Of a stretch of DNA of 64,000 nt, positions 32,310 to 54,751 are shown piece after piece. The DNA lies in the NCBI RefSeq assembly GCF_050320075.1, contig NZ_CP190018.1. One strand, given 5' to 3'. The DNA is from Escherichia coli. Its GTDB lineage: Bacteria; Pseudomonadota; Gammaproteobacteria; Enterobacterales; Enterobacteriaceae. Every line of letters begins with the position of its first letter. The stretch's first letter is position 1. The notes beneath the pieces were generated by a model. The model ran no database searches. It saw nothing but the letters and a program-made list of their open reading frames with translations, and was not told the DNA's origin. The translations under genes were made by a program, and so were the position numbers.

Positions 32310-32541
32310 TAGGTATGAACAATGAGTCTACGTTAAAACGTAACCTCAAATTAGTATGTGGATTTTGATATCACTTATGCAAAAAATTCATTAATAATGT
32401 AGGACTGAAACCTCTCTATTTTTGGGGCAATGAAGCAGACGCTATCAGTGCTTTTGCCTTGGGACTTGCTGTTTTTGATACACTTAAGGCCCAGGACATA
32501 ACGAAAATGTGCGATATGACAAAGAATTAACGGAGAATGTG

Positions 32542-33399
32542 ATGATCAGGCAGAAGATTCTACAGCAGCTCCTGGAGTGGATTGAGTGCAATCTTGAGCA
32601 CCCTATTTCAATCGAAGATATCGCACAGAAATCTGGCTACAGCAGACGCAACATCCAGCTTCTGTTCCGAAATTTCATGCATGTGCCTTTGGGAGAATAC
32701 ATTCGCAAACGAAGGCTTTGTCGTGCCGCCATTCTTGTCCGACTCACCGCGAAATCTATGCTTGATATTGCACTCTCTTTACATTTTGACTCACAGCAGT
32801 CATTCAGCCGCGAATTTAAAAAGTTATTCGGCTGCTCTCCCCGTGAATACCGCCACCGTGATTATTGGGATCTCGCAAATATCTTCCCTTCTTTTTTAAT
32901 ACGTCAACAGCAAAAGACGGAGTGTAGATTAGTCAACTTTCCTGAGACACCTATTTTTGGCAATTCATTTAAATATGATATTGAAGTATCGAATAAATCA
33001 CCGGATGAAGAAGTCAAACTGCGACGTCATCATTTAGCCAGATGTATGAAGAATTTTAAGACGGATATCTATTTCGTCTCCACATTCGAACCGTCAACAA
33101 AATCGGTCGATTTGCTCACAGTTGAAACTTTTGCCGGTACGGTATGCAAACAAACCGATTCAGAGATGTCGAAAGAGTGGACAATTAACCGAGGACTGTA
33201 TGCCTCTTTCCGCTATGAAGGTGAGTGGGAGCACTACCCTGAATGGGCGCGAAACCTCTATCTGATGGAATTACCTGCCAGGGGGTTAGCCAGAGTGAAC
33301 GGCAGTGATATTGAGCGATTTTATTACAATGAAAACTTCGTCGAAATTGATAGCAATAACATTGTTTGCGAAATTTTTATCCCCGTTCGCCCGGTTTAG
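32542..33399 (+). CDS. ykgA: Rob-like AraC-family regulator with a C-terminal GyrI-like domain, apparently full length (285 aa)
   Basis: The AraC HTHs (IEDIAQKSGYSRRNIQLLFRNF; LDIALSLHFDSQQSFSREFKKLFGCSP) and the C-terminus DIERFYYNEN...CEIFIPVRP parallel Rob. ATG at 32542 follows GGAG. Confidence 0.8.
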   Translation: MIRQKILQQLLEWIECNLEHPISIEDIAQKSGYSRRNIQLLFRNFMHVPLGEYIRKRRLCRAAILVRLTAKSMLDIALSLHFDSQQSFSREFKKLFGCSPREYRHRDYWDLANIFPSFLIRQQQKTECRLVNFPETPIFGNSFKYDIEVSNKSPDEEVKLRRHHLARCMKNFKTDIYFVSTFEPSTKSVDLLTVETFAGTVCKQTDSEMSKEWTINRGLYASFRYEGEWEHYPEWARNLYLMELPARGLARVNGSDIERFYYNENFVEIDSNNIVCEIFIPVRPV

Positions 33400-33523: not shown

Positions 33524-36500
33524 TTATTTCTCCTCAGCACCTTCAGTATCTGCAGGAACGGCGTTAATTGTCACAGTCACTGGTTTCATTTCATACCCTC
33601 CATATGTCAAAGAGTTGAATGTGAATGTGTATGTACCTGGCTTGTTGGTACTAAATGTACGCGTGATTTTCCCGCTCGCGAAATGGTCATTTTTCGACGG
33701 CAGGAACTGATAATCCGCCTCTGTCACCCCTTCCGGAGCCTCAATGTCGACCCACATGGTTCCTCCTACGGGGTTGACACCCGACATCAGAGTAACCGTC
33801 AGTGTTGCAGTAGTCTTCCCGTCCGCCACCAGAGAATCTACACGCTCTGGAGATGCAGCGAGCTCCGCGTTTTTATCATCCGCGACGAATTTAGATTCGG
33901 CAGTTTTCGTCGATTCCTGACCGTCGGCCTGTTCCACTTTCGCCGTGAGTGTATATGTCGCTGCGACAGTGGTCGTGGCGGTGAAAATAGCCTGTCCTTG
34001 CTCATTCGTTGTCGCCGTCCCATCGGGATCCAGAGCTAAATTTGCCGGGCTAGCAGTCAGCGTCACCTCGCTATCTTTCAACAGGTTGTTATTGGCATCA
34101 GTCACCGTAACTTTATACGTCTGTTTGGCTTTGCCATCCGCCAGTGCATAGTTGCCAATCACCTCAATACCGGAGACGGTTGCGGTCGCCTTATCGGCCA
34201 CAAACGTTATAGTCTGCGCATCCGAAGGCTGGTCATTTCCTGCCGATGCCGTGATCTCATAGGTTCCGGCAGTCACGGAAACCACCTGCAACTCTGCTTT
34301 CCCCTCATCGTTGGCTTTCACCCAGACATTATCGCCAGTAAGCGGCTTGACACCCCGGGGCAGATTAAAGGTCACCAGAGTGCCTGGAACAGGGTTACCG
34401 TTTTTATCCTCAACGGTCGCCGTCAGCGTAAAGGCATCTTTGCCGTTTGCCACTTTTTGAACGGCGGTGTCAACCTGCAGGTTTGCCTGACCGGTGCTGG
34501 CATCCGCGTTGAATTTCACCGTGACCGTCTTCTGAGAGTTTTTCACCGCGGCCGCGATTTCAAGTTCCCCTGCAACGGTTGATATCAACTCAATATCCGC
34601 TTTACCTGCCGCATTGGTTGTTACTGTATTCCCCGTCTTGCTAGTCACACCCTGCGGTAAAGTCAGCGTAACTTCTTGCCCCTGCAACGGGTTACCATAG
34701 CTGTCCACGACGGTCAGGGTTATCTGGTTAGCAGACTGTCCATTAGCCAGTTGGTTATTAACCTTCACTGTCATATCACGAATCTCAGCCTGAGAAGCGT
34801 CCCCTGCAACGTTCAGCACCAGTGGCTGAGCAACAGCATTTTGGCCGTTCACTCGCGGCATCACAGACAACTGACCCGCGGCAGATCCCAGCGTTAAGGT
34901 CGACACGTAGACCCCATTACCTTTCTCTGTCCAGTTTCCTGCTGAAGGACGCTCACTCCCCGTGCTGGCGGCACCGCTAAACACTGGTGCATCTGGCTTC
35001 AGCCCGGTGACCGGATTCCCGTACGCATCCTTCACGGTGAAGGTGAGTTCCGTCGTCGTTTTAACCGTTGGAGTTTTATTGTCCGCAACAAGCGTAGAAT
35101 TCGCTGATGACATCTCTCCGGCAATAACAGTCAGCTGCGCGGCTTCGGTGGCTGCTGGCTGGCCGTTGAAGAGCGGCATGACACGAAGCTCGCCCGTCTT
35201 TCCGCCTGTAGTTAACGTAGCAACATAGGAACCGTCACCTTTTTCGGTCCAACTGGAAACGGTCGCCCCTTCAGAGGCGGTCCCCGTCAAACTTGCCGAC
35301 AACGAAAGACCACTGATAGCGTTGCCATGTGCATCTTTCGCCACCAACGTCACGGTTGTGCTTTCGCCGGCTTTTACGTGATCTTCCGCGACAGAGACTT
35401 TCGACTGGTTTGAAGATAACGCATCAGCCACCACGGTTACTTTTGCCGCATTTGCTGCCGCATCCTGTCCATTTAGCTTCGGCATAACTTCTAATTCACC
35501 CGCCGTAGAGCCGAGAGTAATCTGCGCAGTCCACGTCCCATCACCATTATTTGTCCAGCCAGATGCCGTAGAACCAACAGCAGCGGCACCCGCTAATGAC
35601 GGCGCTTCCGGCGTGAGGCTGGTCACAGGGTTGTCATTGGCATCTTTTGTCGACCAGATTGCCGTAAGCGTACCGCCGACCACCGGTTTATCAGGATTCA
35701 GGGTGATGGACGAATGTGCTGCATCAAGCGGCCCGGCAACAAACTTCAGCGTTTGTTGTAATGTGCCCAGCTGATACTGCTCGCTGAAGGCGCGCACAAC
35801 AACGTTTCCGGCACGGGTCGAAGAAACCGTGGCGCTGTAAACCCCTGGTTTTATTTCCGAAATGGCACCAACGGTAACACCATTAGTGTCTTGCGGAACA
35901 AGTCGCAGGCGGCTGGCTTCTCCCGTCACCGGATTACCCTCGGAGTCCACCGCAGTCAGCGTCAGCGTGTAGGCTTGCTGACCATCAGCAACCACGTCAC
36001 CTGACGGCTCGTTAGCGCTCAGGGTGGAGTTTGCCACATCCATCATCGTGGCCCGCAGTTCTGCAGTGACGGTTTTGCTCATGCCATCAACGCTAACAGT
36101 AATCGTTGCCTCACCTGACTGCGTTCCGGTCGTAAAGACAGACTGGTACACCCCTGCTTCAGTTTCGGTGAACTCACCCAGTGTGGGCTGTGCCTGTGAT
36201 TTAGTGGCCTTCAGGGTACGAGTCACAATATTTCCAGCCGGTTTGAAGGTTAGTTCAGTCTTGATCTGCTCCTTCATGCCCGTGACTGGCTGACCCTCGG
36301 CGTCGCGCATAGACAGCACCAGCGGCTTTTGCTCATTACCGTTAGCAAGCATTTGAATACGGCTCTGACCGTCAAGCGTTAACGCCGTGCGATCGGCGCT
36401 CATACCAGCTCCGGTAATAACCACTTCTGTCTGCACACGTTTCGAGGCATTGCCTTTGTTATCGTAGGCAACTGCTGAAATCGCATAATAATTGTCTTTG

Positions 36501-37774
36501 CCTGGACGATAAGCCGGGAGCGTTACTTGCCACTGACTACCCTGACCGGTAATTTTGCCACCTTCAGCCAGTAATGACGGCGCTTCCCACTGCACATTTT
36601 TCAGTCCGTGTGTTGCTTTGCTGACCACAAGCCCCAGGGAAACCGTCTGACCGCCCTTACCTTCAATACGCTCAGGCAGAGCAATACGGATCACTTCAGA
36701 TTTGCGGTACTCAAGAACGATGTTGTTATTACGCTCAACCAGGTCATAGCGGCTGCCTGCCAGCATTCGACGCTCGCGAATGCTGTCTGTATCGAGTTGT
36801 TTTTGCAGAGGTTCGCCAATCCGATAATTAACTTCCAAGCCAAAGCGAGTGTCATTCTCACCACTCTTGCCCTGCTTATGCCCGGCACTCAGGGTCAGAA
36901 GAGGCACTGGCGTGTAATTCACTTCAGCGGTAATCGCATGTGGATCTTTCTGGCGTTTATCTTTGCCAAACAGCCCGACTTCATCGCCATAATACTGCTC
37001 ATACATCAGGCTTGCGCCAAGCTGCGGCCAGGCGGGTAAATAGCCCTCAGCACGAATATCCCAGCCATTCGCCGGGCGTTCCTGATAATCCTCAACATCC
37101 GGCGATTTTTTCCAGCCAGAAGCCCGGATATAACCATTGGCGCTCAATTTCAAATAATCACGCCAGTATTCCGCACCAACACCAATGCGGGTATGACTAC
37201 GGGATAAATCATGGTCGATAAAGGTGTTCACCCCCGCCATCCAGTCATTTCCTGAAAAATGACGCCAGCCAAAACCAATATTTGACTGAGTACGATCGTC
37301 GGTACGATGTATTGCCCCCTGAGTGAACAACATATTTGTCGGTGTATCATAAATCGGATAAAGCATTTCCAGCGAAGAATCCTTCAGCGAGAAATCTTTA
37401 TCGACATTCAGTTTGACGCGCGCAGTACCGTATTTCCCGAGCCACTCCTGAATTTCCTGGTTAGCTTTAGCGGTGGCCATTCCGGTAATAAAGTTACGTG
37501 TCGCATCGCTATCTGGCTGACTGCTTAAAAATGTCCCGGCATTTGCGGCAAACGACGCGACATTTTTCTCCACATTATTATCAGCAGCTACTGTGGTATT
37601 TTCCATGCTCAAACGTGGCTGAACCGCATGCTGCGCACGTGCTGCCATTACTGGCGTAAAGGTGACAGCGAGTGGAAAAAGAACCTGAACAGAGATATTT
37701 GCCCACGCCACGCAGCGGGCCAGAACTGAATAACGAAATCGTGGTTGTTTATGACCTGTTTTATAACGTGACAT
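33524..37774 (-). CDS. eaeH: Intimin/invasin-family inverse autotransporter adhesin (EaeH/FdeC type), intact, 1416 aa
   Basis: N-terminal beta-barrel region (...GFGWRHF...GAEYWRDYLKLSANGY...LEYRKSE), followed by a run of ~100-aa Ig-like (Big_1-type) repeats to the C-terminus. Confidence 0.9.
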   Translation of the reverse strand: MSRYKTGHKQPRFRYSVLARCVAWANISVQVLFPLAVTFTPVMAARAQHAVQPRLSMENTTVAADNNVEKNVASFAANAGTFLSSQPDSDATRNFITGMATAKANQEIQEWLGKYGTARVKLNVDKDFSLKDSSLEMLYPIYDTPTNMLFTQGAIHRTDDRTQSNIGFGWRHFSGNDWMAGVNTFIDHDLSRSHTRIGVGAEYWRDYLKLSANGYIRASGWKKSPDVEDYQERPANGWDIRAEGYLPAWPQLGASLMYEQYYGDEVGLFGKDKRQKDPHAITAEVNYTPVPLLTLSAGHKQGKSGENDTRFGLEVNYRIGEPLQKQLDTDSIRERRMLAGSRYDLVERNNNIVLEYRKSEVIRIALPERIEGKGGQTVSLGLVVSKATHGLKNVQWEAPSLLAEGGKITGQGSQWQVTLPAYRPGKDNYYAISAVAYDNKGNASKRVQTEVVITGAGMSADRTALTLDGQSRIQMLANGNEQKPLVLSMRDAEGQPVTGMKEQIKTELTFKPAGNIVTRTLKATKSQAQPTLGEFTETEAGVYQSVFTTGTQSGEATITVSVDGMSKTVTAELRATMMDVANSTLSANEPSGDVVADGQQAYTLTLTAVDSEGNPVTGEASRLRLVPQDTNGVTVGAISEIKPGVYSATVSSTRAGNVVVRAFSEQYQLGTLQQTLKFVAGPLDAAHSSITLNPDKPVVGGTLTAIWSTKDANDNPVTSLTPEAPSLAGAAAVGSTASGWTNNGDGTWTAQITLGSTAGELEVMPKLNGQDAAANAAKVTVVADALSSNQSKVSVAEDHVKAGESTTVTLVAKDAHGNAISGLSLSASLTGTASEGATVSSWTEKGDGSYVATLTTGGKTGELRVMPLFNGQPAATEAAQLTVIAGEMSSANSTLVADNKTPTVKTTTELTFTVKDAYGNPVTGLKPDAPVFSGAASTGSERPSAGNWTEKGNGVYVSTLTLGSAAGQLSVMPRVNGQNAVAQPLVLNVAGDASQAEIRDMTVKVNNQLANGQSANQITLTVVDSYGNPLQGQEVTLTLPQGVTSKTGNTVTTNAAGKADIELISTVAGELEIAAAVKNSQKTVTVKFNADASTGQANLQVDTAVQKVANGKDAFTLTATVEDKNGNPVPGTLVTFNLPRGVKPLTGDNVWVKANDEGKAELQVVSVTAGTYEITASAGNDQPSDAQTITFVADKATATVSGIEVIGNYALADGKAKQTYKVTVTDANNNLLKDSEVTLTASPANLALDPDGTATTNEQGQAIFTATTTVAATYTLTAKVEQADGQESTKTAESKFVADDKNAELAASPERVDSLVADGKTTATLTVTLMSGVNPVGGTMWVDIEAPEGVTEADYQFLPSKNDHFASGKITRTFSTNKPGTYTFTFNSLTYGGYEMKPVTVTINAVPADTEGAEEK

Positions 37775-37844
37775 TGAGATAATTTCCTGATGAACGAATT
37801 AACGAACATAGGCAGACACAAATAATGGCGTCTGCTTGTCAGAA

Positions 37845-37886
37845 AAACCGGGGATTTCCCGGTTTCCTTTTCCGCAGAAAAGGAAA
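37845..37886 (-). terminator. Two abutting hairpins with a U-tract 70-110 nt upstream of the eaeH start codon
   Basis: H1 is AAACCGGG gattt CCCGGTTT (37845-37865). On the minus strand it is followed by UU-C-U, giving CCCGGUUUUUCUG. H2 is TTTCCTTTTC cgca GAAAAGGAAA (37863-37886). The two share 3 nt. Confidence 0.4.
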
Positions 37887-38324
37887 TACCTTTATGTAAG
37901 AAAGTACACCGCCACCTAATATATCCAGTGTCTGTAGCCACTCATCAGGTGGTTGGGCGCGGGATTATATTTTTATTTATGGGTAAAAATTTAGCTTTTT
38001 GTGCAAGTTATTAAATAGATACTTAAGTTATATTTCTTACTCTGCGGGCAGTGAATAATTCATTATTAAGAGTGAATAATAATGACCCGTCTTTAATTAA
38101 CTGCTATTGGGAGTACGTCGAAGTGAGTATATACGCCAGGATAAACCAATATATTTTTTATGGACATTCATTTATATTCATCGGACTGTAAATTCCGGGG
38201 ATATCGAACTTGCACGACTAATCTCAACCCTCAAACAGATTTATGAATTTTGTTCATAACCCCTGACAAATCCTGCCGTCTAATCGAGCTTTTCCCTTTA
38301 CGTTATGCTTCTCATGAACGATAA

Positions 38325-41248
<2,924 letters not shown>

Positions 41249-54525: not shown

Positions 54526-54559
54526 GCCCCGCCAGCTATAATCGCGGGGCTTCGTTTTT
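54526..54559 (+). terminator. ykgJ rho-independent terminator
   Basis: GCCCCGC...GCGGGGC stem followed by TTCGTTTTT. Confidence 0.65.
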
Positions 54560-54710
54560 CAGGGATAACAAAACCCGAAACTTCTTCCATCTGCCAGCAA
54601 CAATGCCTCTTCCTCTATAGTGTTCTCCGGATCTACAGCATCCTGAAGTAGCGCGATGTACTCACGGGCTATCTGCTTCAGAAAGTAAAAAGCAATGTTT
54701 TTAACCTATA

Positions 54711-54737
54711 AAAATGGCGCTGCATTTGCGCCATTTT
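54711..54737 (-). terminator. yagU terminator (symmetric A/T-flanked hairpin)
   Basis: A 10-bp stem AAAATGGCGC/GCGCCATTTT with a 7-nt loop, starting 15 nt past the yagU stop. Confidence 0.6.
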
Positions 54738-54751
54738 TATTATTCAATGCA

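What the first reader, a model, noticed from the sequence alone, without database searches (positions are those of the whole stretch)
37812..37886. Stack of hairpins ending in an intrinsic-terminator-like structure just upstream of the eaeH start codon
On the eaeH (minus) strand, three structures appear in order:
- a 10-bp A/U-rich hairpin, TTTCCTTTTC-tgcg-GAAAAGGAAA (37886-37863)
- an 8-bp GC-rich hairpin, AAACCGGG-aaatc-CCCGGTTT, running into a UUUUUCUG tail (37865-37839)
- a third 6-bp hairpin, GCAGAC...GTCTGC (37835-37812)

All lie within ~110 nt of the ATG at 37774. There is no minus-strand gene upstream that would need terminating.

The arrangement fits two readings. It could be a transcription-attenuating leader controlling eaeH. 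Or it could be the 3' end of an unannotated small RNA encoded in the 565-bp A+T-rich spacer (37775-38339).
Basis: seen in the sequence. Interest (0 to 1): 0.45.

Follow-up and report, generated by a model that had tools for sequence, protein, structure and literature searches.

The report
Conserved structured leader of adhesin gene fdeC
The three hairpins are real, evolutionarily maintained RNA structures in a roughly 185-base untranslated leader in front of the E. coli adhesin gene fdeC (eaeH). They most likely hold the gene off after transcription has started, which could explain why this vaccine-candidate adhesin is made only at 39 C or above.

Summary
All three hairpins sit at the stated coordinates on the fdeC-sense (minus) strand, and a compact GC hairpin followed by a T-run is very unlikely here by chance (about 0.002 for the spacer).

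They lie downstream of a conserved promoter: an invariant TATAAT, with a marbox-like box exactly 18 bp upstream. That makes them part of a roughly 185-nt 5' leader.

The leader is single-copy, unannotated, absent from Rfam and present in 5035 of 5426 complete E. coli genomes. It travels with fdeC into E. ruysiae, E. whittamii and two more distant lineages whose upstream neighbours differ.

Each hairpin shows a compensatory double change. Most one-sided changes are G-U wobbles that pair only on the sense-strand RNA.

As a terminator, hairpin 2 is weak (-8.1 to -4.5 kcal/mol). Its U-tract is complementary to the Shine-Dalgarno sequence (UUUUCUG with CAGGAAA), and CAU..AGGUA just 5' of hairpin 1 is complementary to UAUCU..AUG. 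Those segments are invariant, so this pairing cannot be tested by covariation, and it is not significant against shuffles (about 11%).

Best reading: a cis-regulatory leader that masks the ribosome-binding site, possibly as a thermosensor, with partial premature termination. A stand-alone sRNA is disfavoured. No transcript data exist for this locus.

The parts
37988..38007 (-). Marbox-like box CTTGCACAAAAAGCTAAATT, forward orientation, 18 nt upstream of the -10 hexamer. Putative activator site of the fdeC promoter.
   Evidence: GCACNNWNNRYYAAAY has one match in the 64-kb window, against 0.26 expected. The box and its spacing to TATAAT are invariant in 7 lineages while the sequence between them varies. 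The consensus and the class II geometry are from my memory of Martin et al. 1999.
37964..37969 (-). Putative -10 hexamer TATAAT, inside the invariant AAAAATATAATCC. Predicted transcription start about 37958-37954.
   Evidence: Invariant in all lineages, including L007 and L175, whose upstream genes differ. The start site is inferred, not mapped.
37908..37958 (-). Variable 5'-terminal stem-loop of the leader (GCC...CCACCUGAUGAGUGG...AGGUGGCGGU).
   Evidence: Present in the minimum-free-energy fold. Sequence identity to distant lineages is only 27-73%, but other hairpins occupy the same place in L007 and L175. Some paired changes appear in RNAalifold.
37887..37896 (-). CAUAAAGGUA, the predicted 5' strand of long-range helix P1. 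It pairs with UAUCU..AUG (37781-37772).
   Evidence: RNAalifold consensus. Never varies in the paired positions. The two substitutions seen both fall on one unpaired column, at 37893. It competes with a local hairpin in single-sequence folds.
37863..37886 (-). Hairpin 1: 10-bp A/U-rich stem UUUCCUUUUC-ugcg-GAAAAGGAAA. The 5' arm contains AUUUCCU (anti-SD) and the 3' arm contains AGGAAA (SD mimic).
   Evidence: The stem is identical in all protein-anchored orthologues except L175, where U-A becomes C-G (compensatory) and the loop becomes UUCU. Loop variants UGUG and UACG occur in E. coli.
37848..37862 (-). Hairpin 2: CCGGG-aaauc-CCCGG, the terminator-shaped stem-loop.
   Evidence: Five loop sequences occur, plus a loop inversion. 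Stem changes are U-G, G-U (two positions) and G-C to A-U in L175. Two lineages lose the top pair.
37839..37847 (-). U-tract UUUUUCUGA: a terminator tail and, at the same time, an anti-Shine-Dalgarno strand. UUUUCUG(A) pairs with (U)CAGGAAA at 37790-37783.
   Evidence: Invariant except one metagenome contig with U to C at the first U. The helix is predicted by RNAalifold and by single-sequence folds with probability 0.35-0.92, depending on construct and temperature. Conservation stops just 3' of it, from position 37838 onward.
37812..37835 (-). Hairpin 3: GCAGACGC-cauuauuu-GUGUCUGC.
   Evidence: G-C to A-U occurs in ruysiae-type leaders, with a G-U intermediate in L007. GU/GC and CG/UG alternations occur, and the hairpin is rebuilt with different sequence in L175.
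37772..37809 (-). Invariant translation-initiation block AUGUUCGUUAAUUCGUUCAUCAGGAAAUUAUCUCAAUG. SD AGGAAA at 37788-37783, fdeC AUG at 37774-37772.
   Evidence: 97-100% identical in all lineages, above the adjacent coding sequence at 73-87%. One T to C in L175.
33524..37774 (-). fdeC (eaeH), inverse autotransporter adhesin, 1416 aa: the gene served by the leader.
   Evidence: ORF list. RefSeq annotation of the identical strain 746 region.
32509..33399 (+). ykgA-like Rob paralogue (AraC HTH plus GyrI-like domain), convergent with fdeC. Candidate regulator acting at the marbox-like box.
   Evidence: Pfam and NCBIfam hits, full length to RobA models but below their cut-off. The same neighbour occurs in L175, L178 and L181. 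The regulatory link is inference only.

Best explanation
The hairpins are the core of a conserved, roughly 185-nt structured 5' untranslated leader of fdeC. The leader is transcribed from an activator-type promoter: TATAAT with a marbox-like box in place of a -35 element.

Proposed folding. Three local hairpins (1, 2 and 3) fold first. The U-tract after hairpin 2 (UUUUCUGA) then pairs with the Shine-Dalgarno region (UCAGGAAA), and CAU..AGGUA just 5' of hairpin 1 pairs with UAUCU..AUG. The ribosome-binding site ends up closed inside a multi-branch structure.

Proposed function. The leader keeps fdeC off after transcription initiation, mainly by masking translation initiation. The weak, A-U/G-U-rich masking helix makes it a candidate for the unexplained induction of FdeC at 39-42 C. 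The same GC hairpin plus U-run probably also causes some premature termination or pausing.

What is shown and what is inferred.
- Shown: the hairpins exist, are conserved and covary on the sense strand, and the leader is specific to fdeC.
- Inferred: the start site, the long-range helices, the masking, the thermosensing and any termination.
For: Location and extent.
- The invariant TATAAT and the box, at fixed spacing, travel with fdeC even where the upstream gene differs.
- There is one copy per genome in 5035 of 5426 E. coli genomes, with nothing annotated.
- The covariance model finds the leader only at fdeC, and not at 46 loci of related or more distant inverse-autotransporter genes. It has no Rfam family.

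Selection.
- Positions -119 to -60 and -29 to 0 are 80-100% identical in lineages whose first 90 coding bases are 73-93% identical. Sequence upstream of -240 is essentially unalignable.

RNA structure on the sense strand.
- 99.4% of cells are paired. Each local hairpin has one compensated pair. There are 6 double-changed cells against 1.7 in shuffles (0 of 500 shuffles reach it).
- Seven pair positions show G-U/U-G variants, which would be A-C mismatches on the other strand.
- Hairpin 3, downstream of the U-tract, is also maintained by compensation. So the selected RNA extends into fdeC.

Masking.
- The U-tract:SD and CAU/AGGUA:UAUCU/AUG helices appear in the RNAalifold consensus.
- The U-tract:SD helix has probability 0.92 falling to 0.67 between 25 and 42 C in the construct running from the start site to the AUG.
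- Sequence conservation ends just after the 3' boundary of the U-tract strand, and the only substitutions in the P1 strand fall on one unpaired column.

Physiology.
- FdeC protein is reported only at 39 C or above in EHEC, and at 42 C but not 37 C in APEC, with no mechanism known beyond H-NS repression (PMC11143625).

Terminator shape.
- It is rare by chance.
Against: - No transcript 5' or 3' end has been mapped. The start site is a prediction, and the folds change with the assumed ends.
- The long-range helices never vary, so covariation cannot test them.
- SD masking is not better than in about 11% of dinucleotide shuffles of the upstream leader. AUG masking is no better than average.
- Predicted melting between 30 and 42 C is gradual, not switch-like.
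- P1 competes with a local hairpin.
- The extreme conservation of the hairpin 1 sequence and of the 20 nt 5' of the SD is not explained by these helices. It may reflect a protein or sRNA partner, or a DNA-level site.
- Reported thermoregulation could be entirely H-NS-dependent transcription.
- The metagenome loci were retrieved by an exact match to the hairpin 1 stems. Their hairpin 1 invariance is therefore by construction. Only the protein-anchored loci (L003-L009, L175, L177, L178, L181) count for that hairpin.
Confidence: 0.5

Rival explanations
1. Transcription attenuator. Hairpin 2 plus the U-run is a working intrinsic terminator inside the leader, and control of read-through is the main regulatory step for fdeC. 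Read-through would be set by a factor bound to hairpin 1, by NusA, or by temperature. The complementarity to the SD would be incidental.
For: - Canonical shape: a perfect GC stem, a 5-nt loop, then immediately U5CU, with an A-run upstream.
- That shape is rare by chance, about 0.002 in the spacer, and only 5 such sites occur in 128 kb.
- The stem is kept by wobble and compensatory changes, and the U-run is invariant.
- I could not see a usable promoter between the U-run and the AUG, and the built-in scan lists none on this strand. So fdeC transcripts must pass through it.
- The adjacent, strictly conserved hairpin 1 resembles the upstream hairpin needed for L4-mediated attenuation in the S10 leader (from my own knowledge).
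Against: - The stem is short and weak: -8.1 kcal/mol here, -6.3 in the commonest haplotype, and -6.0, -5.5 and -4.5 in other lineages. Natural variants that weaken it are tolerated.
- There is no conserved leader ORF, and no alternative antiterminator pairing turned up on inspection.
- No 3' end near eaeH appears in the K-12 Term-seq tables, though expression there is very low.
- Invariance of CUGA after the U-run, and of the whole SD block, is not required by a terminator.
Confidence: 0.22
2. The 3' end of an independent small RNA of roughly 110-115 nt, running from the TATAAT promoter to the U-run. It would act in trans, or on the fdeC ribosome-binding site through CAUAAAGGUA.
For: - A consensus -10 lies about 115 nt upstream of a terminator-shaped hairpin.
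- The conserved single-stranded CUUUC..CAUAAAGGUA is complementary to the fdeC start region.
Against: - The 5' two-thirds of the putative sRNA is the least conserved part of the leader (27-73% identity).
- The U-tail has only five U, and the terminator is weak.
- Hairpin 3 and the block beyond the U-run are maintained as RNA structure or sequence and have no promoter of their own. This implies one continuous transcript.
- There is no Rfam family.
- There are no eaeH, fdeC or ykgP entries in the EPEC RIL-seq, K-12 RIL-seq-derived sRNA predictions, Hfq CLASH or Term-seq tables searched.
Confidence: 0.08
3. DNA-level elements. The perfect palindrome of hairpin 1 and the TTCGTT-AA-TTCGTT repeat would be operators for a DNA-binding regulator (for example YkgA, H-NS or another repressor acting as a roadblock). 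The RNA hairpins would be by-products.
For: - Hairpin 1 is a perfect 10+10 palindrome with a 4-bp spacer, and its sequence is nearly invariant.
- The invariant block 5' of the SD contains a direct repeat that the proposed RNA helices do not explain.
- fdeC is reported to be H-NS-repressed (title of Easton et al. 2014, cited in PMC11143625).
Against: - The only hairpin 1 stem change seen is a symmetric, pair-preserving double change.
- In hairpins 2 and 3, seven pair positions carry changes that keep pairing only as G-U on the sense-strand RNA, and hairpin loops vary freely. That is the pattern of RNA structure, not of sequence-specific protein contacts.
- The sites would lie at +70 to +180, which is unusual for operators.
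Confidence: 0.08
4. A constitutive structural 5' UTR. The hairpins would only stabilise the mRNA against RNases, or set a fixed low translation rate, with no signal-responsive switch.
For: - Stable 5' hairpins are present in all lineages, though with differing sequences.
- The predicted structure changes only gradually with temperature.
- Masking is not significant against shuffles.
Against: Conservation of the hairpin 1, hairpin 2, U-run and SD blocks is higher than in the coding sequence and far higher than a generic stabiliser needs. FdeC is tightly condition-dependent.
Confidence: 0.12

Closest known systems
fourU-type RNA thermometers (Salmonella agsA, Yersinia lcrF, Vibrio toxT, Shigella shuA / E. 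coli chuA); from my own knowledge
   Same: - A run of four U pairs with the purine core of the Shine-Dalgarno sequence through A-U and G-U pairs.
- The element lies in the 5' UTR of a virulence or host-contact gene.
- The gene's product appears only at elevated temperature.
   Different: - The anti-SD strand is about 50 nt from the SD, and the helix closes a three-way junction rather than a simple hairpin.
- The reported threshold is 39-42 C, not 37 C.
- The U-run also directly follows a GC hairpin, like a terminator.
- No melting data exist, no covariation is available, and the masking is not significant against shuffles.
Intrinsic-terminator attenuators in enterobacterial 5' leaders (trp, pyrBI, the S10 operon leader with L4/NusA); from my own knowledge
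   Same: A GC hairpin followed at once by a U-run, inside a leader between promoter and start codon. An adjacent conserved upstream hairpin is present, as with HD/HE in the S10 leader.
   Different: - The stem has only 4-5 strong pairs (-4.5 to -8.1 kcal/mol).
- There is no conserved leader peptide and no identifiable antiterminator.
- There is no evidence of 3' ends.
Dual-acting expression platforms, in which one strand serves both a terminator and SD sequestration, as in some riboswitches; from my own knowledge
   Same: The same U-rich segment is the terminator tail and the anti-SD strand.
   Different: No ligand-binding aptamer is recognisable. There is no Rfam match even at E = 10.

Membership tests
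Intrinsic (Rho-independent) terminator | G+C-rich stem-loop followed immediately by a U-run | tested here: met
   CCGGG-aaauc-CCCGG then UUUUUCU. It is one of 5 strict sites in 128 kb, and chance in the spacer is about 0.002.
Intrinsic (Rho-independent) terminator | Hairpin stable enough to release RNA polymerase; typical E. coli terminators are roughly -10 kcal/mol or stronger with 7 or more pairs (typical values from my own knowledge) | tested here: not met
   -8.1 kcal/mol in this window, and -6.3, -6.0, -5.5 and -4.5 in other natural haplotypes. The AAA/UUU extension competes with hairpin 1.
Intrinsic (Rho-independent) terminator | Transcript 3' ends at the U-run in vivo | not testable with these tools
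   The K-12 Term-seq tables list no eaeH, ykgP or ykgR end, but the gene is almost silent in K-12.
Leader-peptide transcription attenuator | Conserved short leader ORF whose translation selects between alternative hairpins | tested here: not met
   No leader ORF is shared across lineages. The 28-codon ORF of L007 and L175 is absent or in another frame elsewhere, and its differences are all non-synonymous (sequences).
fourU RNA thermometer | Four consecutive U paired with the SD core in the 5' UTR | tested here: inconclusive
   UUUUCUG with CAGGAAA is predicted. However, about 11% of shuffled leaders mask the SD as well, and the columns never vary.
fourU RNA thermometer | Helix melts within the physiological range and frees the SD | tested here: inconclusive
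   In silico, helix probability falls from 0.92 to 0.67 (25 to 42 C) and the unpaired SD fraction rises from 0.06 to 0.15 in the construct from start site to AUG. The change is gradual and depends on the construct. No probing data exist.
fourU RNA thermometer | Temperature-dependent expression of the downstream gene independent of its promoter | not testable with these tools
   FdeC is made only at 39-42 C or above (PMC11143625), but promoter and leader effects have not been separated.
Hfq-dependent trans-acting sRNA | Conserved seed, and a terminator with a long U-tail | tested here: not met
   The 5' region is the least conserved part. The tail has five U. Structure is conserved beyond the tail.
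Hfq-dependent trans-acting sRNA | Detected as an Hfq-bound RNA | tested here: inconclusive
   No entries in the EPEC RIL-seq, K-12 sRNA-prediction or CLASH supplements as held. The locus may simply be silent under those conditions.
Any described RNA family (Rfam 15) | Match to a covariance model | tested here: not met
   No hit at gathering thresholds. Only chance-level hits at E up to 10.
Repetitive extragenic palindromes or mobile repeats | Many copies per genome | tested here: not met
   Median of one place per genome. One match in the window even with 3 mismatches allowed. Unrelated metagenome hits share only the hairpin 1 palindrome.
Class II marbox promoter (MarA/SoxS/Rob type) | Match to AYNGCACNNWNNRYYAAAYN in forward orientation, 18-19 bp from the -10 hexamer (definition from my own knowledge) | tested here: met
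   GCACAAAAAGCTAAAT is the only match in the window. It lies 18 nt from TATAAT, and box and spacing are invariant in 7 lineages. Consensus position 1 is C or T rather than A.
Class II marbox promoter (MarA/SoxS/Rob type) | Activation by a MarA/SoxS/Rob-family protein | not testable with these tools
   A Rob paralogue (ykgA-like) is the conserved convergent neighbour. No literature link was found.

The most novel reading that the evidence does not exclude
The fdeC leader is a two-lock post-initiation switch tuned to fever, bovine or avian body temperature (39-42 C). A weak hairpin-plus-U-run aborts part of the transcripts. In those that read through, the same U-run works as a fourU-like thermometer strand on the Shine-Dalgarno sequence. 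The promoter is switched on by the neighbouring Rob paralogue YkgA through a class II marbox. That would give a dedicated three-layer circuit (H-NS and YkgA, termination, RNA thermometer) for a broadly conserved E. coli adhesin and vaccine antigen.
Probability: 0.2. Interest if true: 0.7.

Novelty: new member of a known kind. Interest (0 to 1): 0.5.

Why it matters
FdeC (EaeH) is a widely conserved E. coli adhesin and a vaccine candidate. Its expression is notoriously tight: it is made at 39-42 C or above, or on host contact. The only published control is H-NS repression.

This work gives that problem concrete handles:
- A defined RNA element of about 130 nt that is under stronger constraint than the protein's own N-terminal coding sequence.
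- Complementarity between that element and the ribosome-binding site.
- A marbox-like promoter box next to a Rob-like regulator gene.

These turn 'why is FdeC only made at high temperature?' into a small set of reporter, probing and termination experiments. It is not a new kind of mechanism.

Tried and rejected
- Rfam at gathering and permissive thresholds gave nothing relevant.
- The built-in promoter and terminator scan missed hairpin 2 and the TATAAT promoter, because of its stem-extension rule and its -35 requirement.
- My first loose terminator scan was too permissive: 200 sites, with hairpin 2 only mid-ranked. I replaced it with a strict scan plus shuffles.
- My first temperature fold used a wrong 5' end (37946). 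It gave different long-range pairs, which shows how sensitive the global fold is.
- Leader-peptide attenuation is rejected: no conserved ORF.
- A repeat or mobile element is rejected: single copy.
- Extension of the element to other inverse-autotransporter genes is rejected: the covariance model finds none in 46 loci. The Salmonella 66% and the 58% homologues have unrelated upstream DNA.
- Literature. No paper in the searchable library describes a start site, leader or sRNA for fdeC/eaeH, or a ykgA-fdeC link. Easton et al. 2014 and Thomason et al. 2015 are not held.
- Supplement searches for eaeH, ykgP or nearby coordinates came back empty in Term-seq, RIL-seq, CLASH, Cappable-seq and SMRT-Cappable-seq tables. 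Some stored files may be truncated.
- L179 was discarded as a C-to-T converted (bisulfite-like) read assembly.
- CsrA binding (four GGA motifs, one in the SD) was considered. I had no way to test it.
Full report
**What the window is.** The region is Escherichia coli and is 100% identical to strain 746. The minus-strand ORF 33524-37774 is fdeC (eaeH), a 1416-aa inverse autotransporter adhesin. An aldo/keto reductase gene diverges from it at 38340. In K-12 that reductase is lost and homology begins at window position 38325, but the whole spacer next to eaeH is retained.

**Checking the observation.**
- Hairpin 1 is a perfect 10-bp stem, 37886-37863 (-11.5 kcal/mol).
- Hairpin 2 has a 5-bp G/C core, CCGGG/CCCGG at 37862-37848 (-8.1 kcal/mol), followed at once by UUUUUCUGA.
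- Hairpin 3 extends to 8 bp, 37835-37812 (-11.4 kcal/mol).

The leader folds far better than shuffles, z = -4.8. Under a strict definition of a compact terminator shape there are 5 sites in both strands of the window, against 1.1 in shuffles. The chance of one on this strand of the 565-bp spacer is about 0.002. A looser scan shows that hairpins of similar energy with T-rich tails are common. The shape alone is therefore suggestive, not decisive.

**Where the hairpins sit in the transcript.** I aligned fdeC upstream regions from E. coli, Shigella, Escherichia sp. E1V33, E. whittamii, E. ruysiae and two more distant lineages. Those two are L007, from a record titled Salmonella enterica strain s1 (FdeC N-terminus 86% identical), and L175, from GCA_051411795.1 (81%). 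The alignments show a block structure.
- Upstream of about -240 nothing aligns.
- Then comes an invariant TTGCACAAAA(A/T)GCTAAATT.
- Thirteen variable bases follow.
- Then comes an invariant AAAAATATAATCC.

The box matches the MarA/SoxS/Rob 'marbox' core GCACNNWNNRYYAAAY. It is the only match in 64 kb, against 0.26 expected. It lies 18 bp from TATAAT in forward orientation, which is the class II geometry as I remember it from Martin et al. 1999. There is no recognisable -35, as expected for such promoters. This unit stays with fdeC although the upstream gene differs: an aldo/keto reductase in E. coli, a GlgX-like gene in L007 and other genes in L175. The gene convergent with fdeC encodes a Rob paralogue (ykgA-like), and it is a conserved neighbour. 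I infer a start site at about 37958-37954, which puts all three hairpins inside a 5' UTR of about 185 nt. This start site is not mapped.

**Conservation.**
- The 196-nt leader is present once per genome in 5035 of 5426 complete E. coli genomes. It is at least 95% identical in all but three, and nothing is annotated on it. The wider 700-bp region is only 90-95% identical in about half of them.
- Against E. ruysiae, L055, L007 and L175, positions -119 to -60 (hairpins 1 and 2 and the U-run) are 80-100% identical.
- Positions -29 to 0 are 97-100% identical.
- The first 90 coding bases are 73-93% identical.
- The 5' stem-loop and hairpin 3 regions drop to 27-77%.
- A covariance model of the 129-nt core finds it only at fdeC in the window, and in none of 46 loci of related or more distant inverse-autotransporter genes.
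- Homologues at 66% and 58% identity have unrelated upstream DNA.
- Rfam has no family for it.

**RNA structure.** I collected 38 leader haplotypes (20 for the 129-nt core) from genomes, from a metagenome scan and from protein-anchored look-ups. One caveat applies: the metagenome scan required the hairpin 1 stems exactly, so only the protein-anchored loci speak for hairpin 1.

On the core alignment, 99.4% of cells pair and each local hairpin has one compensated pair.
- Hairpin 1: U-A to C-G in L175.
- Hairpin 2: the top pair goes from G-C to A-U in L175. A G-U intermediate occurs in L177, and A-C or G-A breaks occur in L055 and E. whittamii.
- Hairpin 3: G-C to A-U in ruysiae-type leaders, with G-U in L007.

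Double-changed cells number 6, against 1.7 in shuffles (0 of 500 shuffles reach it). Sliding the partners destroys the pairing. Seven pair positions carry G-U or U-G variants that would be A-C mismatches on the plus strand, so the selected structure is the fdeC-sense RNA. Loops vary freely. The hairpin 2 loop has five sequences plus an inversion of the loop and inner stem in 8 metagenome loci. L175 rebuilds hairpin 3 from different sequence (-7.1 kcal/mol). Because hairpin 3 lies beyond the U-run and has no promoter of its own, the RNA under selection runs through the 'terminator' into fdeC.

**What the terminator-like element does.** As a terminator it is weak. The core stem is -8.1 kcal/mol here, -6.3 in the commonest E. 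coli haplotype (the K-12 type, with U-G), and -6.0, -5.5 and -4.5 in other lineages. No conserved leader peptide exists, and I found no antiterminator alternative.

RNAalifold and single-sequence folds instead pair the U-run UUUUCUG(A) with (U)CAGGAAA, which is the Shine-Dalgarno region. They also pair CAU..AGGUA, just 5' of hairpin 1, with UAUCU..AUG. These are exactly the invariant blocks. Conservation stops just 3' of the U-run strand (position 37838 onward). The only two substitutions in the P1 strand both hit one unpaired column.

The limits of this reading are as follows.
- The helices never vary, so covariation is silent.
- About 11% of dinucleotide-shuffled leaders mask the SD equally well, and AUG masking is average.
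- Predicted opening between 25 and 42 C is gradual (helix probability 0.92 to 0.67) and depends on the assumed ends.

**Link to biology.** According to PMC11143625, FdeC is expressed at 42 C but not 37 C in an avian pathogenic strain, from a construct carrying its own promoter region. The same paper states that in EHEC the protein was detected only at 39 C or above (citing Easton et al. 2014). The title of the Easton paper reports regulation by H-NS and temperature. I could not read that paper and do not know whether it mapped a start site. No paper I could search mentions a leader, thermometer, attenuator or sRNA for this gene. No eaeH entry occurs in the Term-seq, RIL-seq, CLASH, Cappable-seq or SMRT-Cappable-seq tables I searched. 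That fits a locus that is nearly silent under laboratory conditions.

**Verdict.** This is a cis-acting, structured leader of fdeC, not a terminator for an upstream gene and probably not a stand-alone sRNA.

I commit to translational masking of the ribosome-binding site by the U-run and the CAU..AGGUA strand as the main mechanism. It may be temperature-sensitive, and the weak hairpin 2/U-run probably contributes some premature termination. My confidence is about 0.5. The existence of a selected RNA structure is much more certain than this mechanism.

It is a new member of known kinds of element (5' UTR thermometers and attenuators). It is of moderate interest because it makes the unexplained thermoregulation of a vaccine-candidate adhesin directly testable.

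Noticed in passing
window 37988-38007 (-) and 32509-33399 (+): A marbox-like box lies exactly 18 bp upstream of the conserved TATAAT of fdeC. A Rob paralogue gene (ykgA-like) is the conserved convergent neighbour. Together they suggest a dedicated activator-promoter pair for fdeC. No literature link was found.
   Followed up: partly
L073:7352-7480 and seven other metagenome loci (e.g. L097, L110, L122, L130): There is a natural polymorphism in which the loop and inner stem of hairpin 2 are inverted: CGGGAAATCCCCG becomes CGGGGATTTCCCG. The stem is kept and the loop is flipped. This is the signature of a template-switch or hairpin-inversion mutation.
   Followed up: partly
window 37648-37941 (-); ATG at 37809: A 97-codon ORF (GTG start) runs through all three hairpins and overlaps the fdeC start out of frame. 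Its inner ATG (37809) is invariant but has no Shine-Dalgarno sequence. In L007 and L175 the same frame holds a 28-codon ATG ORF ending in the hairpin 3 loop. It is not conserved in E. ruysiae, and the differences are non-synonymous, so it is probably not coding.
   Followed up: partly
window 37793-37806 (-): A direct repeat TTCGTT-AA-TTCGTT lies inside the invariant block just 5' of the Shine-Dalgarno sequence. The proposed helices do not explain its conservation. It could be a binding site for a protein or an sRNA.
   Followed up: no
window 54546-54746 (-): This is the only Rfam hit in the window: IS009 sRNA (187.8 bits). A bidirectional terminator-shaped palindrome lies at 54713-54734.
   Followed up: no
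window 38280-38325; hit H30 (NZ_CM169495.1): Homology between this strain and K-12-type genomes breaks at 38325, where the aldo/keto reductase genes are missing in K-12. One genome retains only a 46-bp piece of this junction, at 100% identity, with nothing annotated.
   Followed up: no
L007 (CP191473.1): The record is titled Salmonella enterica. It carries an FdeC 86% identical to E. coli's, with the full leader, next to a GlgX/TreX-like gene. By contrast, proteins named Salmonella enterica in the protein search are at most 66% identical and lack the leader. The taxonomic label looks doubtful, or the locus was transferred.
   Followed up: no
L179 (Logan SRR24798440 contig): This copy of the leader and fdeC start has nearly every C read as T. 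It looks like bisulfite-converted or damaged reads, so I excluded it from the alignments.
   Followed up: yes
window 37872-37848 and 37788-37783 (-): Four GGA motifs lie within 90 nt: GCGGAA, AAGGAAA, CGGGAAA and the SD CAGGAAA. This is the arrangement seen in CsrA-bound leaders. I could not test it.
   Followed up: no
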